Assembly (NCBI GenBank): GCA_964632485.1
Contig: CAZWDO010000026.1
Coordinates: forward strand, 1-43,498
Length of the DNA stretch: 43,498 nt
From: an uncultured bacterium
GTDB lineage: Bacteria; JAGOEH01
Direction of reading: 5' to 3'
Shown in pieces: positions 2,722-17,177 of this stretch. The notes beneath the pieces were generated by a model. It was not told the origin of the DNA and searched no databases. It was given only the letters and a program-made list of their open reading frames with translations. A program made the translations under genes and the position numbers. Each line of letters starts with the position of its first letter. Position 1 is the stretch's first letter.

Positions 2722-3447
2722 TTAATCCAGGCTGGAGCCGTTGGTTTGCGGAATGATCCGATCGGCTATTTTTTCGTCGCTTTCGATCATTCCATCGCGA
2801 ATACGGACGACTCGTTCGGCATGCCGGGCGATATATTCTTCATGAGTTACCAGGATAATGGTATTCCCTTGACGGTAGATCTGATCGAATAAAGCCATAA
2901 TGTCTTCACCGGTTTTTGAGTCCAAATTTCCGGTCGGTTCATCGGCCAGAATGATGGCAGGACGGGTAACCAGCGCGCGGGCAATGGCCACGCGTTGGCG
3001 TTGTCCGCCGGACAGCTCCTGGGGCTTATGATGGACACGGTTGCCCAAACCTACTTGTTCCAGGGTTTCCCGGGCCCGGTCTTTACGATCCGTAGAGGGA
3101 ACACCGGCATAGATCAGGGGTAGCTCCACATTGTGCAGTGCGTTGGAACGCGCCAACAAATTAAAGGTCTGAAATACAAACCCGATCTCTTTGTTGCGGA
3201 TTTCAGCCAGTTGATTTCCGCTCATTTCATTCACCATTTCACTGCGAAAGCGATAGCTCCCTTCATCCGGAGTATCCAGGCAGCCTAAAATGTTCATCAA
3301 AGTTGATTTGCCGGATCCTGAAGGGCCCATAATCGCCAGGTACTCATTGGGCTGGATAGTGAGCGAAACTTTATTGAGCGCCAGTACTTCTTCTGTACCC
3401 AGTACATAGCGTTTACTAATGCTTTGAATATCAATCAAGTCGTTCAT
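2722..3447 (-). CDS. ABC transporter ATP-binding protein (LolD/MacB-like)
   Basis: Walker [10 protein letters not shown], signature LSGGQRQR, Walker [13 protein letters not shown]-loop VTHE. Confidence 0.97.
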
Positions 3448-14566: not shown

Positions 14567-16372
14567 TTAAAAATAGCGGGTTAAACGAGTTAATAAACTT
14601 TCAGTCAGTTTGAAATCGTCTTCTTTTTGTTTTTGATTGGGCTTAACGGGGGAGAATCGGGCTAATTGAGTATGGTCCATGAAGTTCAAAAGTTCCTGGA
14701 TAACCGCTTCATCAATTTTTCTTGCGTTGAAAAGCGCGCGAATTTCATCGCTGTTCAGATCGCTTTTATCGGGCATCAGACGGTCCGTGATATATTTTGC
14801 TAATGCGCAATAGAGCTCGTTATAAAATGCATCAATATTTTCATCCCGTTTTAGCTGTTTAGCCTTACCGAGCCGCTTTTTAGCTTCGCGCGATGCGCCC
14901 ATTGAGCGGGCGTAGCTCCGGTCGTCTATAAGCCGATTGCGATGACTGCTGTGAATGAAGGCAAGCGGTATGGAAAACAAACCGATCATGAGCAACAGCC
15001 AAAAATACCATTCCAGTTGCTGTTGCTGGTTGACGATAGCAGTGGGCGTCGGTTTAATGTAACGGATATCCTGTTTCAACAGATCAATTTCCCGTGCATC
15101 GTAATTGCCGGCGGCGCTGCTGAGTACGGGCGTTTTCCCTTGTTCCACCGTGATGGTGATGGGCTGGGTTGAAACCGTTTTGTATTGATAGCTTTCAATG
15201 TCAAAATAGTGAAAGGAAACGGCCGGAATGGTAAACGAACCTTTTCGGTTCGGCACCAGAGCATACTCAATCACCATTTTACCGGAGACACGATCGCTAT
15301 TGGGAGTAATGGTCGAACCGGATTTATAGGCTGTAAACGCATCGGGAAAAGTCAGTTCCGGTTCACCAACCATCTTGAAGTTACCCTGCCCGGCCAGTGT
15401 CAGGCGAAAAGTGATGCCTTCGTTTGTTTTTGCCTGAGTAGAATTAACCCCGGCTTGAATGGTAAATCGTCCCACGTTTCCATCGGTCATTCCTGCGGGA
15501 CGCCCGGTTGAAGGTAACGGTTTGACGTCGATGGCAATCGGATTGGATTTGACTTCAAGTTGCTGGGATTGTGAAAAAAAAGAGGAACTGAAAAAATCGT
15601 CAAAAAATGGATCGCGCGACCGAACTCTGACCACACAGTTAATGCTGAAAGGTGAAATGGTCTGTTTCCCGATGGCTGTGGGATAGACCAGAATCTCCTG
15701 GAGTTCGGCAACCAGGTATTTCTGGTTGTTGATCACTTTGTTGTATTGTTTGATGCTGTTGTTATTGGGAATCTCTTCGACCCAAAAATTTTGAGTTTTT
15801 GGCAAGGCGTTCACGGAGTATTGTTCAACATTCATCCGCGTATAAAGTTTATAGACAATCCGGATCGGTTCATAAAGATAGACTGATTTTTTACTGATTT
15901 CTCCACGTAGGTAGATATCTTCATTTTGCTTTTCGGGGTTCGAATCGCCCCTCTCGGATCCAGATGCGGTCTGACCCTGAGCTAAAACTTCGATGGCCAG
16001 TCGGTTGCTTTCATAAGTCTGATTATTGAGCGCGATGCTGGCCGGACCCAGCTCAAATTTTCCCACTTGGTTCCCCCGCAGGTAGATCGTAAGGGTTTGA
16101 CTGACGGTTTTTCGGCCATTGACAATTGAAATATTCGATGATTGCGTTTTACCGATCATCTGGAAATTTTCAATCCCTTTGATCACAGGCGTAAAACTGC
16201 CGACTTGTCCCGTACTGCTTACCACTAACTCAATGCCCAACTCTTCACCAATAGTCAGTTGACTGCGATTGCTCGAAAGCGAGACTTCAATTTGCGCCCA
16301 GGTAGATTGAAGGGGACCCGCAAGAAAAATAAAAAGCGCTAAAACAAGTAGATTACCAGTCCTTTTCGACAT
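14567..16372 (-). CDS. batD: BatD family protein
   Basis: Signal peptide, repeated Ig-like BatD domains ('QSSNISIVNG', 'FWVEEI', 'DPFFDDFF', 'G.GN'), C-terminal TM plus cytoplasmic tail. Start MSKR after GGAGG. Confidence 0.9.
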   Translation of the reverse strand: MSKRTGNLLVLALFIFLAGPLQSTWAQIEVSLSSNRSQLTIGEELGIELVVSSTGQVGSFTPVIKGIENFQMIGKTQSSNISIVNGRKTVSQTLTIYLRGNQVGKFELGPASIALNNQTYESNRLAIEVLAQGQTASGSERGDSNPEKQNEDIYLRGEISKKSVYLYEPIRIVYKLYTRMNVEQYSVNALPKTQNFWVEEIPNNNSIKQYNKVINNQKYLVAELQEILVYPTAIGKQTISPFSINCVVRVRSRDPFFDDFFSSSFFSQSQQLEVKSNPIAIDVKPLPSTGRPAGMTDGNVGRFTIQAGVNSTQAKTNEGITFRLTLAGQGNFKMVGEPELTFPDAFTAYKSGSTITPNSDRVSGKMVIEYALVPNRKGSFTIPAVSFHYFDIESYQYKTVSTQPITITVEQGKTPVLSSAAGNYDAREIDLLKQDIRYIKPTPTAIVNQQQQLEWYFWLLLMIGLFSIPLAFIHSSHRNRLIDDRSYARSMGASREAKKRLGKAKQLKRDENIDAFYNELYCALAKYITDRLMPDKSDLNSDEIRALFNARKIDEAVIQELLNFMDHTQLARFSPVKPNQKQKEDDFKLTESLLTRLTRYF

Positions 16373-17177
16373 GACGTCGTCCTCCCGCCGGCACACGCAT
16401 TTTTTCCAAGTTTTTCTTTTCCTGATCTTCCATCGCTTTTAACATCGCCTCCGCTTGTTGCTGGTCCATTTTTTCCTGCTGTTCCTGTTGAGATTGTGTT
16501 TCCTGCGCCTGTTCGTTTTCTTTCTGCTGCTGATCCTTTTCCTGTTGCTGCTGCTGTTGTTTTTCCTGGTCCTGCTGGTTTTGCTGGTTTTGCTGGTCCT
16601 GCTGATCTTTCTGATCTTGCTGTTTTTCCTGGTTCTGTTGGTTTTGCTGCTGTTGCTGTTGGGGTTTAATCAAATAAACGCCCATCTGCACCCCAGCGGC
16701 ATCCGGCTGTTGGTTTTGCTGCTGTTGCTGTTGGGGTTTAATCTGGTCTTTGATCTTTTTGCGAACGAATTCCAGATTAAATTTTGCGTCCTGATCTTCA
16801 GGGTTTTGTTTCAGCGCCTGGATGTAATGTTGGACGGCATCTTCCAGTTGATTGTTGCGATAGGCCAGATTTCCCAAATTATAGTCGATTTTACCTTTGG
16901 TCTCGCGGTCGGAAGTCAAGCTTTGTGATTTTTCGAGTTCTTTTTTAGCTTCTTCATATTTTTGCAGTTCATAGAAGGTAATGCCTTTATTGTATTGAAC
17001 CACATTATGTTCCTGGGCTTCCAGTGCAGCATCGGAATATTTTTTCAGGGCTTCCTGGTACTCTTTTTGCGTAAATAGTTCATTGCCTTTTTTTATATAA
17101 TCATAAAGCGCATCGGCGGAATGGGCGCAGAAGGGGATAAATAGCCATAGTGTTACAATCGGGACGATCCGTTTCAT
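16353..17177 (-). CDS. batC: BatC-like TPR protein with Gln-rich linker
   Basis: Signal peptide, TPRs 'YNLGN..Y...ALKQNPEDQDAKFNLE', poly-Q region, canonical C-terminal 'EKDW'. Confidence 0.9.
   Translation of the reverse strand: MKRIVPIVTLWLFIPFCAHSADALYDYIKKGNELFTQKEYQEALKKYSDAALEAQEHNVVQYNKGITFYELQKYEEAKKELEKSQSLTSDRETKGKIDYNLGNLAYRNNQLEDAVQHYIQALKQNPEDQDAKFNLEFVRKKIKDQIKPQQQQQQNQQPDAAGVQMGVYLIKPQQQQQQNQQNQEKQQDQKDQQDQQNQQNQQDQEKQQQQQQEKDQQQKENEQAQETQSQQEQQEKMDQQQAEAMLKAMEDQEKKNLEKMRVPAGGRRHVEKDW
16635..16743. repeat. Perfect 37-bp direct repeat flanking a unique 35-bp insert inside batC
   Basis: CTGTTGGTTTTGCTGCTGTTGCTGTTGGGGTTTAATC at 16635-16671 and 16707-16743; insert AAATAAACGCCCATCTGCACCCCAGCGGCATCCGG at 16672-16706. 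Confidence 0.95.

What the first reader, a model, noticed from the sequence alone, without database searches (positions are those of the whole stretch)
16635..16743. Repeat-spacer-repeat scar inside batC: candidate natural ectopic Cas1-Cas2 spacer integration (neo-CRISPR)
Seen: an exact 37-bp duplication flanks a unique 35-bp insert. The extra 72 bp keep the frame, giving IKPQQQQQQNQQ-PDAAGVQMGVYL-IKPQQQQQQNQQ. The insert is compositionally alien to the poly-Gln linker, and removing insert plus one copy restores a normal BatC. Known: Cas1-Cas2 integration duplicates a repeat-length target around a spacer-length fragment, 37-nt repeats with about 35-nt spacers are common CRISPR dimensions, and off-target integration has been shown experimentally for E. 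coli type I-E. Slippage gives adjacent copies without foreign DNA, and IS target duplications are much shorter. Inference: a recent off-target acquisition tolerated in a disordered linker, i.e. CRISPR adaptation inserting new peptide into a protein.
Basis: partly seen in the sequence, partly recalled or inferred. Interest (0 to 1): 0.75.

Follow-up and report, generated by a model that had tools for sequence, protein, structure and literature searches.

The report
Stray CRISPR spacer inside batC gene
A 35-base piece of foreign DNA, flanked by a 37-base duplication, sits in frame inside an ordinary gene, and its dimensions match this bacterium's own CRISPR array, so it is most likely a natural mis-insertion by the CRISPR spacer-integrating enzyme.

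Summary
Window 16635-16671 and 16707-16743 are identical 37-mers around a unique 35-bp insert, and the extra 72 bp add 24 residues in frame to a BatC-position TPR protein.

- **Matching CRISPR system.** The genome has one cas1, with cas2, cas4 and type I-B effector genes. Its single array has 43 identical 37-nt repeats. Of its 42 spacers, 41 are 34-39 nt and 8 are exactly 35 nt.
- **Empty site in a relative.** Two runs of one other marine sample each hold a near-identical contig that skips exactly these 72 bp, leaving one copy of the 37-mer.
- **Junctions supported.** An independent unitig assembly holds a piece spanning both insert junctions.

The insert is not a hairpin and not a copy of anything in the genome. 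Its 60% GC resembles the newest spacers. In gene sense, the target resembles the leader-repeat junction weakly (top 0.7% of genome positions).

No protospacer or PAM was found, so the case is circumstantial (confidence about 0.7). The scar is not a working new array. This scan has noted similar scars in other genomes. It is a natural example of a reaction known from the laboratory.

The parts
16353..17177 (-). BatC-position gene (274 aa): signal/TM segment, TPR repeats, Gln-rich low-complexity linker, conserved C-terminal tail. It carries the insertion at the start of the linker.
   Evidence: ORF. TPR families only. Neighbours are BatA-like and BatB-like VWA proteins, BatD and a second TPR protein. 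Homologues.
16707..16743 (-). Copy of the duplicated 37-bp target that lies first in gene sense. It is the 'leader-proximal' pseudo-repeat if the gene-sense orientation is the one the integrase read.
   Evidence: Exact duplicate. In gene sense it matches the resident repeat at 16 of 37 positions.
16672..16706 (.). 35-bp insert of spacer length, foreign to the assembly. In gene sense it encodes PDAAGVQMGVY and the first two bases of the next Leu codon.
   Evidence: Unique in the genome. 60% G+C. No hairpin. Ordinary k-mer content. No exact match in three public collections.
16635..16671 (-). Second copy, in gene sense, of the duplicated 37-bp target.
   Evidence: The empty-site allele in runs X2 and X3 keeps one copy only.
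16744..16753 (-). Ten bases flanking the duplication on the gene-upstream side. With the 37-mer they give the weak resemblance to the native leader-repeat junction.
   Evidence: Five of 10 positions match the last 10 leader bases, including the CA just before the junction. Flank plus 37-mer match 21 of 47 positions, top 0.69% of genome positions.

Best explanation
The resident type I-B adaptation complex (Cas1-Cas2, with Cas4) integrated a 35-nt prespacer from an unidentified foreign DNA into batC instead of the leader-proximal CRISPR repeat. The two strand-transfer attacks landed a repeat length (37 bp) apart on opposite strands. Gap repair then duplicated the 37-bp target on both sides of the insert. 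Because 37+35 = 72 is a multiple of three, the insert has no stop codon in the gene frame, and the site lies in a variable Gln-rich linker, the protein gained 24 residues and the allele survived. What is shown: the footprint, its match to the resident array's dimensions, the presence of the enzymes, the empty-site allele and the foreignness of the insert. What is inferred: that Cas1-Cas2 did it, the orientation of the event, and that the insertion is tolerated.
For: (1) Duplication and repeat length. The duplication is 37 bp, and all 43 repeats of the only CRISPR array are 37 nt (42 read in full, one interrupted by N).
(2) Insert and spacer length. The insert is 35 bp. The 42 resident spacers are 34 nt (4), 35 (8), 36 (6), 37 (12), 38 (8), 39 (3) and 44 (1).
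(3) Enzymes present. The genome has one cas1 match. Cas1, Cas2 and Cas4 all score over NCBIfam cut-offs and lie beside the array. The effector genes are Cas8b/Csh1, Cas7/Csh2, Cas5b and Cas3.
(4) Empty site. In runs X2 and X3 (one sample) a 1213-nt and an 823-nt contig join 16634 to 16707, skipping 72 bp with 37 bases shared. Only 3 differences occur in the 794 bases on the TPR side.
(5) Junction support. In run X1 a 95-nt unitig (16642-16736) carries the insert with both junctions.
(6) Distant homologues. None of the 8 homologues printed has the PDAAGVQMGVYL segment, and 3 of them enter the polyQ linker through the same KDQ/KEQ-x-x-PQQ motif.
(7) Nature of the insert. It is not a hairpin (z +0.45 and +0.92), not a genomic repeat, and not significantly like the local sequence (maximum over registers P about 0.12-0.14).
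(8) Target resemblance. In gene sense, flank plus target matches the last 10 leader bases plus the repeat at 21 of 47 positions, top 0.69% of genome positions. The best nearby register is the observed boundary. The opposite orientation is at chance.
(9) Published parallel. With P. furiosus Cas1-Cas2 in vitro, full-site integration occurs at non-CRISPR sites a repeat length apart, and the preferred such site is 43% identical to the repeat (PMC6698737, passages read). Here the identity is 16 of 37, also 43%.
(10) Composition. The 12 leader-proximal spacers average 54.6% G+C against 41.5% for 28 older ones (Mann-Whitney p = 0.0011). The insert's 60% fits the recent group.
(11) Genome-wide rarity. 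Of 61 short-range exact direct repeats in the genome, only this one and one other are isolated repeat-insert-repeat units with an unrelated insert. Their unit sizes, 72 and 74, both lie in the array's usual 71-76 range.
Against: No protospacer was found. The 35-mer has 0 exact matches in viral contigs, metagenome contigs and genome contigs. It has only chance-level hits (E of 1 or more) in phages and plasmids. With up to 3 mismatches it has none in the other 2 genomes held for the phylum. So no PAM could be tested.

The target resemblance is weak: about 0.7% of genome positions score as well, and only one of the two borders has the native border base.

Array polarity, and so which spacers are 'newest', is inferred from the AT-rich cas-adjacent flank and a recalled repeat-end motif.

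Run X1 shows 0 differences and may be the assembly's own source, so its junction support is not independent data. Only contigs, not raw reads, were laid.

The first copy and the insert form a quasi-palindrome at their junction (17 of 35 in one inverted register, post hoc P 0.005-0.015). The model does not predict this.

Earlier notes of this scan describe 72-nt insertion units in other genomes that their authors thought were not CRISPR-made.
Confidence: 0.7

Rival explanations
1. A CRISPR-independent insertion process produced the unit. Candidates are template switching or break repair that captures a short fragment, or the undescribed '72-nt insertion plus compensating duplication' process noted earlier in this scan. 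On this reading the match to the array's dimensions is coincidence.
For: Earlier scan notes e1-5079327 and e1-3206587 describe 72-nt units, one of them 35+37, that their authors did not attribute to Cas1-Cas2. The second scar in this genome is 40+34, a longer duplication with a shorter insert. The junction of the first copy and the insert is a quasi-palindrome.
Against: The insert is neither a hairpin nor a copy of the genome's own DNA. Those two properties characterised the units in the earlier notes. No known repair or transposition route gives a 37-bp target duplication (recalled knowledge). The duplication equals the resident repeat length exactly and the insert falls in the spacer range. 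Similarity of the insert to local sequence is not significant once all registers are allowed (P 0.12-0.14).
Confidence: 0.15
2. The repeat-insert-repeat form is older standing variation in a fast-evolving linker, for example the remnant of a 24-residue tandem module or a recombinant between diverged alleles. On this reading the X2/X3 allele is a deletion between the 37-bp repeats, not the ancestral state.
For: The polyQ side differs at 13 letters plus 6 gap letters between the window and the X2/X3 contigs, so the linker evolves fast. Deletion between 37-bp direct repeats is easy (general knowledge). No close outgroup exists: the best relatives are 47% identical.
Against: The two copies are 37 of 37 identical in a region that differs by 13 letters between strains, so the duplication is young. 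There is no trace of a second insert-like segment on either side. None of the 8 homologues printed has the segment. This rival does not explain how the unit arose, nor its dimensions.
Confidence: 0.07
3. The unit is an assembly or strain-mixing artefact: the loop through the 37-mer was threaded into the contig wrongly.
For: In a k=31 graph the 37-mer is a repeat node, so the copy number of the loop cannot be read from the graph. In X1 the insert unitig has depth 3.4 and the 37-mer node 6, against flanks of 6.8 and 5.3. That is less than expected if every cell carried the unit. One array repeat holds a run of N, so the assembly is scaffolded.
Against: The 95-nt unitig joins the end of the 37-mer to the insert and the insert to the start of the 37-mer at depth 3.4. 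The insert is therefore physically embedded between batC sequences in several reads. The depths fit a mixed population as well as an error.
Confidence: 0.05

Closest known systems
Non-canonical (off-target) Cas1-Cas2 spacer integration, 'neo-CRISPR' (Nivala, Shipman and Church 2018, E. coli type I-E). The paper is not held and is known here only through citing papers.
   Same: A spacer-length insert lies outside the array, flanked by a duplication of non-repeat DNA of repeat length, in a genome with the integrase.
   Different: The system here is type I-B with Cas4, with 37-bp rather than 28-bp geometry. The event is natural, not from over-expressed Cas1-Cas2. It lies in frame inside a conserved gene, an empty-site allele segregates in another sample, and there is no sign of a functional new array.
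Full-site integration at non-CRISPR plasmid sites by Pyrococcus furiosus Cas1-Cas2 in vitro (PMC6698737; abstract and passages read).
   Same: The attacks are paired a repeat length apart. The target is only about 43% identical to the repeat, with resemblance concentrated at the leader-repeat border, and G lies at one integration point.
   Different: That work was in vitro on plasmids with a 30-bp repeat. Here there is a chromosomal scar with a 37-bp repeat, the enzyme is untested, and the mid-repeat A-rich motif is not in register.
Repeat-length ruler of type I-B adaptation in Haloarcula hispanica (PMC4872114; abstract read).
   Same: It is the same subtype. It explains why a duplication would start at a junction-like site and end a fixed distance away.
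   Different: Its AACCC and GTGGG anchor motifs belong to a different 30-bp repeat. Only a CCC at positions 9-11 is shared in register between this target and the resident repeat.
Ectopic spacer acquisition within arrays of Streptococcus thermophilus (PMC7999890; search listing and start of abstract only).
   Same: Spacers are placed away from the leader-proximal repeat.
   Different: Those events are still at genuine repeats inside the array. This one is in unrelated coding DNA.

Membership tests
Off-target Cas1-Cas2 spacer integration scar | Target duplication equal to the resident CRISPR repeat length | tested here: met
   The duplication is 37 bp. All 43 repeats are 37 nt.
Off-target Cas1-Cas2 spacer integration scar | Insert within the resident spacer length range | tested here: met
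   The insert is 35 bp. Of 42 spacers, 41 are 34-39 nt and 8 are exactly 35 nt.
Off-target Cas1-Cas2 spacer integration scar | Intact adaptation genes in the same genome | tested here: met
   There is one cas1 match. Cas1 scores 262 bits, Cas2 54.9 and Cas4 102.9, all over cut-off.
Off-target Cas1-Cas2 spacer integration scar | Empty site (one copy, no insert) in close relatives | tested here: met
   Contigs in runs X2 and X3 skip 72 bp with 37 bases shared.
Off-target Cas1-Cas2 spacer integration scar | Insert derives from a protospacer beside the system's PAM | tested here: inconclusive
   No source was found. The PAM of the system was not determined.
Off-target Cas1-Cas2 spacer integration scar | Target resembles the leader-repeat junction or the repeat | tested here: inconclusive
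   In gene sense, 21 of 47 positions match (top 0.69%) and 16 of 37 for the repeat alone (top 2.1%). The other orientation is at chance. This is suggestive only.
Off-target Cas1-Cas2 spacer integration scar | Catalysis by Cas1-Cas2 shown directly | not testable with these tools
   This needs an in vitro or in vivo integration assay.
Functional new CRISPR array (neo-CRISPR locus) | Repeats that can be processed into crRNA, and growth beyond one unit | tested here: not met
   There is one unit only. The folds of the 109-nt unit pair its 37-mers with the insert rather than within themselves. I see no counterpart of the AATCC/GGATT pairing that I read in the resident repeat. The unit lies inside an mRNA.
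Miniature transposable or hairpin element with target-site duplication | Multiple copies, terminal inverted repeats or a hairpin, and a short duplication | tested here: not met
   The insert is single-copy, has no hairpin, and the duplication is 37 bp.
Slippage or tandem duplication | Inserted material is a copy of adjacent sequence | tested here: not met
   The best ungapped match to 337 bases of local context is 19 of 35, P 0.12-0.14.

The most novel reading that the evidence does not exclude
Off-target integration by a native type I-B Cas1-Cas2-Cas4 complex is an ongoing mutational process in wild populations. It can write foreign peptides in frame into conserved proteins. This genome would hold two such events (batC, 37+35; a decayed hsdR, 40+34), and the batC one would still be segregating. 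If so, its frequency, site preference and fitness cost could be measured directly from metagenomes.
Probability: 0.3. Interest if true: 0.7.

Novelty: new member of a known kind. Interest (0 to 1): 0.55.

Why it matters
Off-target spacer integration is known mainly from E. coli with over-expressed Cas1-Cas2 and from in vitro work. According to the papers I could read, natural evidence is circumstantial. My four searches listed no paper describing a natural in-frame integration into a protein-coding gene.

This case combines three things: a footprint that matches the resident array's dimensions, a filled and an empty allele in environmental populations, and a coding consequence. It documents a genomic cost of CRISPR adaptation and a small source of protein insertions. 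It also offers a natural off-target site for studying how a bacterial type I-B integrase picks its targets. It is one anecdote, without a protospacer, so its main value is as part of a collection with the similar scars this scan has noted elsewhere.

Tried and rejected
**Source of the insert.**
- Exact 35-mer scans of viral contigs, metagenome contigs and genome contigs found 0 matches.
- blastn against phages and plasmids gave only E of 1 or more.
- A search with up to 3 mismatches covered the 3 genomes held for the phylum and found only the window itself.
- The whole array against phages gave no match.
- I did not scan sub-stretches or wobble-masked versions of the 35-mer, so diverged protospacers were not looked for.

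**Related arrays.** The exact 37-nt repeat has 0 matches in metagenome contigs and genome contigs, so no sister arrays could be checked for the same spacer.

**Close relatives of BatC.** None is in the protein database. The next best listed hit is 49% identical or less, and the best in the 40 other genomes searched is 47%.

**Insert as a REP-like element.** Rejected. It shares only an ordinary 8-mer with the genome's palindromic repeats, and no 12-mer of it occurs more than 3 times in the genome.

**Insert as an inverted copy of the target.** Register 0 gives 17 of 35, but the maximum over registers is not significant. A recent fold-back copy would also be near-perfect.

**Overlap of the insert with resident spacers.** The longest shared word is 7 nt.

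**Second scar against the leader-repeat junction.** There is no in-register resemblance. Its 21-nt match on contig C27 is only a similar gene start.

**Run X4.** It holds two 151-nt pieces that do not reach the site, so it says nothing.

**Nivala et al. 2018.** The paper could not be read. Supplements of papers were not consulted.

Full report
**The observation.** Window 16635-16671 and 16707-16743 are identical over 37 bases, and the bases flanking the two copies differ. The duplication is therefore exactly 37 bp and the piece between them (16672-16706) exactly 35 bp. The other 5 copies of this repeat family in the same polyQ-coding stretch are only 62-68% identical. The insert is 60% G+C in a 43.8% genome and occurs once in the 4.45-Mb, 66-contig assembly (no other site with 6 or fewer mismatches; best other ungapped match 24 of 35).

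**The gene.** The unit lies in a 274-aa ORF on the minus strand (16353-17177).
- The ORF matches TPR families only. It sits between two VWA proteins with a BatA-type N-terminus, a BatD protein and a second TPR protein, which is the Bat operon order.
- The protein reads ...KKIKDQ-IKPQQQQQQNQQ-PDAAGVQMGVYL-IKPQQQQQQNQQ-NQEKQQ....
- No close homologue is on record. In the large protein database only the window's own protein is 100% identical, and no other listed hit exceeds 49% (3738 proteins at E of 0.001 or less among 8000 scored, best 120 listed). In the 40 other genomes searched the best are 47%.
- I printed the homologue from 8 of those genomes. None has the PDAAGVQMGVYL segment. Three enter a Gln-rich linker of very variable length through the same KDQ/KEQ-x-x-PQQ motif.
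- The insert is therefore derived, and it lies at the start of a variable low-complexity linker.

**The resident CRISPR-Cas system.** The genome has one cas1 match.
- On contig C34, Cas1, Cas2 and Cas4 all score over NCBIfam cut-offs. Next to them are Cas8b/Csh1, Cas7/Csh2, Cas5b and Cas3, making a type I-B system.
- A scan of the genome for regularly spaced repeats found one array only, at C34:3057-6191. It has 43 repeats, all the same 37-mer; one is interrupted by a run of ten N.
- The 42 spacers are 34 nt (4), 35 (8), 36 (6), 37 (12), 38 (8), 39 (3) and 44 (1).
- So the duplication equals the repeat length, and the insert has the joint second most common spacer length (35 nt, tied with 38).
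- I take the 200-nt AT-rich stretch between cas4 and the array as the leader. The array is then transcribed on the minus strand of C34. This rests on position, on composition, and on my recollection that such repeats end in ATTGAAAC in RNA sense.

**Empty site and junctions.** Six runs were listed for this stretch and four hold it or part of it. I laid their Logan contigs.
- Runs X2 and X3 come from one marine sample of 2012. Each holds a contig (1213 and 823 nt) that joins 16634 directly to 16707, skipping 72 bp with 37 bases fitting either side. That is one copy of the 37-mer and no insert.
- These contigs differ from the window at 3 letters in 794 on the TPR side (2 in 221 for X3), and at 13 letters plus 6 gap letters in the polyQ side. 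This is a very close population carrying the empty site.
- Run X1 (2018, 0 differences) may be the assembly's own source. There the graph breaks at the 37-mer into four pieces: a left piece (to 16664, depth 6.8), the 37-mer alone (depth 6), a 95-nt piece at 16642-16736 carrying the insert with both junctions (depth 3.4), and a right piece (from 16714, depth 5.3).
- The insert is thus physically joined to batC sequence on both sides.
- The depths hint that only part of the X1 population carries it. At this coverage, and with contigs only, that cannot be settled.
- X4 does not reach the site.

**Where the insert comes from.** I could not find a source.
- Exact scans of viral, metagenome and genome contig collections found nothing.
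- Phage and plasmid BLAST gave only chance-level hits.
- The search with up to 3 mismatches covered the 3 genomes held for this phylum and found only the window.
- The insert does not fold (z +0.45 and +0.92), shares no long word with the genome, and is not one of the genome's palindromic REP-like repeats.
- This matters because earlier notes of this scan (e1-3206587, e1-5079327) describe 72-nt units in other genomes whose inserts are hairpins copied from the genome's own DNA. Their authors doubted a CRISPR origin. Neither property holds here.
- One circumstantial link to the array exists. The 12 leader-proximal spacers average 54.6% G+C against 41.5% for the 28 older ones (p = 0.0011). Four of the five spacers at 60% or more are in the recent group, and the insert is 60%.

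**The target site.** I compared the site with the last 10 leader bases plus the repeat.
- In gene sense, flank plus 37-mer matches at 21 of 47 positions. Only 0.69% of all positions of the genome (both strands) do as well. Among neighbouring registers the best one is the observed boundary.
- The repeat alone matches at 16 of 37 (43%, top 2.1%). The junction window from -2 to +13 matches at 10 of 15 (top 0.14%, a window chosen after looking).
- The opposite orientation is at chance.
- This is weak, but it is the pattern reported for P. furiosus Cas1-Cas2 in vitro: full-site integration at non-CRISPR sites a repeat length apart, a preferred site only 43% identical to the repeat, resemblance at the borders, and G preferred at the attack point (PMC6698737, passages read).

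**Other scars in the genome.** I listed 61 short-range exact direct repeats of 24 bp or more, spaced 500 bp or less, outside the array. Nearly all are arrays of REP-like palindromes, protein tandem repeats or duplicates around scaffold gaps.
- Two are isolated repeat-insert-repeat units with an unrelated insert: the batC one (37+35 = 72) and C34:23617-23730 (40+34 = 74).
- Both sums lie in the array's usual unit range of 71-76.
- The second sits in a decayed type I restriction locus. The frame upstream of its first copy continues the match to the HsdR C-terminal family for 19 more residues (E 0.017), whereas the second copy's upstream side does not. The 74 bp therefore look inserted there too.
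- Its duplication is 40 bp, not 37. It shows no in-register likeness to the leader-repeat junction, and its insert happens to carry a ribosome-binding site and start codon. I leave it open.

**Rivals.**
- *A CRISPR-independent insertion process (0.15).* It is kept alive by the earlier notes, by the 40+34 scar, and by an unexplained quasi-palindrome at the junction of the first copy and the insert (17 of 35 in one inverted register, post hoc P 0.005-0.015, but P 0.12-0.14 over all registers).
- *Older standing variation, with the X2/X3 allele a deletion (0.07).* It does not explain how the unit arose, and it fits poorly with two perfectly identical copies in a fast-changing linker.

**What it is and is not.** The best reading (0.7) is a natural off-target integration by the resident type I-B Cas1-Cas2(-Cas4). 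The allele was kept because 72 bp preserves the frame, the insert has no stop codon, and the site is a variable linker. It is not a new CRISPR array. There is a single unit, the pseudo-repeat has no stem like the resident repeat's, and it lies inside an mRNA.

**Literature and novelty.** The founding paper (Nivala et al. 2018) is not held.
- Citing papers describe off-target integration in E. coli with over-produced Cas1-Cas2, and circumstantial evidence in two other species.
- My searches listed no natural in-frame case in a protein gene. Only 2 papers in the library hold 'neo-CRISPR' or 'off-target spacer integration'.
- This scan has already noted similar scars in other genomes (14 findings, 8 shown).
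- I therefore rate this a new member of a known kind, of moderate interest.
- Supplements of the papers were not seen and could hold further natural examples.

Noticed in passing
L023:3617-3730 (= genome contig C34:23617-23730): A second isolated repeat-insert-repeat unit: an exact 40-bp duplication around a unique 34-bp AT-rich insert, sum 74, which is the commonest CRISPR unit size here. It lies inside a decayed type I restriction locus. The frame upstream of the first copy continues the HsdR C-terminal match, so the 74 bp look inserted. The insert carries a ribosome-binding site and start codon for the downstream fragment. It may be a second off-target integration with 3 bases of chance identity at a border, or something else.
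   Followed up: partly
L022:1-3093 (= genome contig C34:1-3093, trailer end of the array): Three diverged copies (82-94% identical) of the 5' part of a phage SPP1 gp7-like minor capsid gene. Each is preceded at an identical junction, 44 nt upstream of its start, by the CRISPR repeat: the full repeat at 3057 and its first 27 nt at 604 and 1838. The roughly 65 nt next to the repeat are identical in all three. This could be tandem duplication from the terminal repeat, or phage DNA carrying repeat-like sequence. It is unexplained.
   Followed up: partly
L022:5975-6010 and L024:1575-1609: The third leader-proximal spacer matches a gene on contig C43 at 30 of 35 positions. I read that gene as a FISUMP-type lipoprotein (a recalled name, from no call). 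All five mismatches are spaced in multiples of three, so the spacer appears to come from a foreign homologue of a conserved motif of that gene.
   Followed up: partly
L022:5309-6154 against L022:3094-5120: Spacer composition shifts sharply along the array. The 12 leader-proximal spacers average 54.6% G+C and the 28 older ones 41.5% (p = 0.0011). This suggests a recent run of acquisitions from a GC-richer invader.
   Followed up: yes
window 16661-16683: The end of the first 37-mer and the start of the insert form a quasi-palindrome (GGGGTTTAATC|AAATAAACGCCC). In this one inverted register the insert matches the 37-mer at 17 of 35 positions. The match is not significant over all registers, may be partly compositional, and is not predicted by the integration model.
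   Followed up: yes
Genome contigs C2:237618, C3:232926, C6:231423, C19:9573, C21:31717, C22:6447, C30:34546, C55:25: A family of GC-rich palindromic REP-like units (core like GTCATGCCGGA...TCCGGCATCCA), often in short tandem arrays of 38-85-nt period.
   Followed up: no
Genome contig C23:49398-49511: A further pair at 72-nt spacing: about 42 nt at roughly 90% identity around about 30 nt. It reads like an internal 24-residue protein repeat (GFNIGF.SK.G.FA) rather than a scar.
   Followed up: no
Whole genome: Only 3 species-level genomes are held for this phylum (this one, one of the same family and one of the same order). The lineage is very sparsely sampled, which limits every comparative test.
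   Followed up: no
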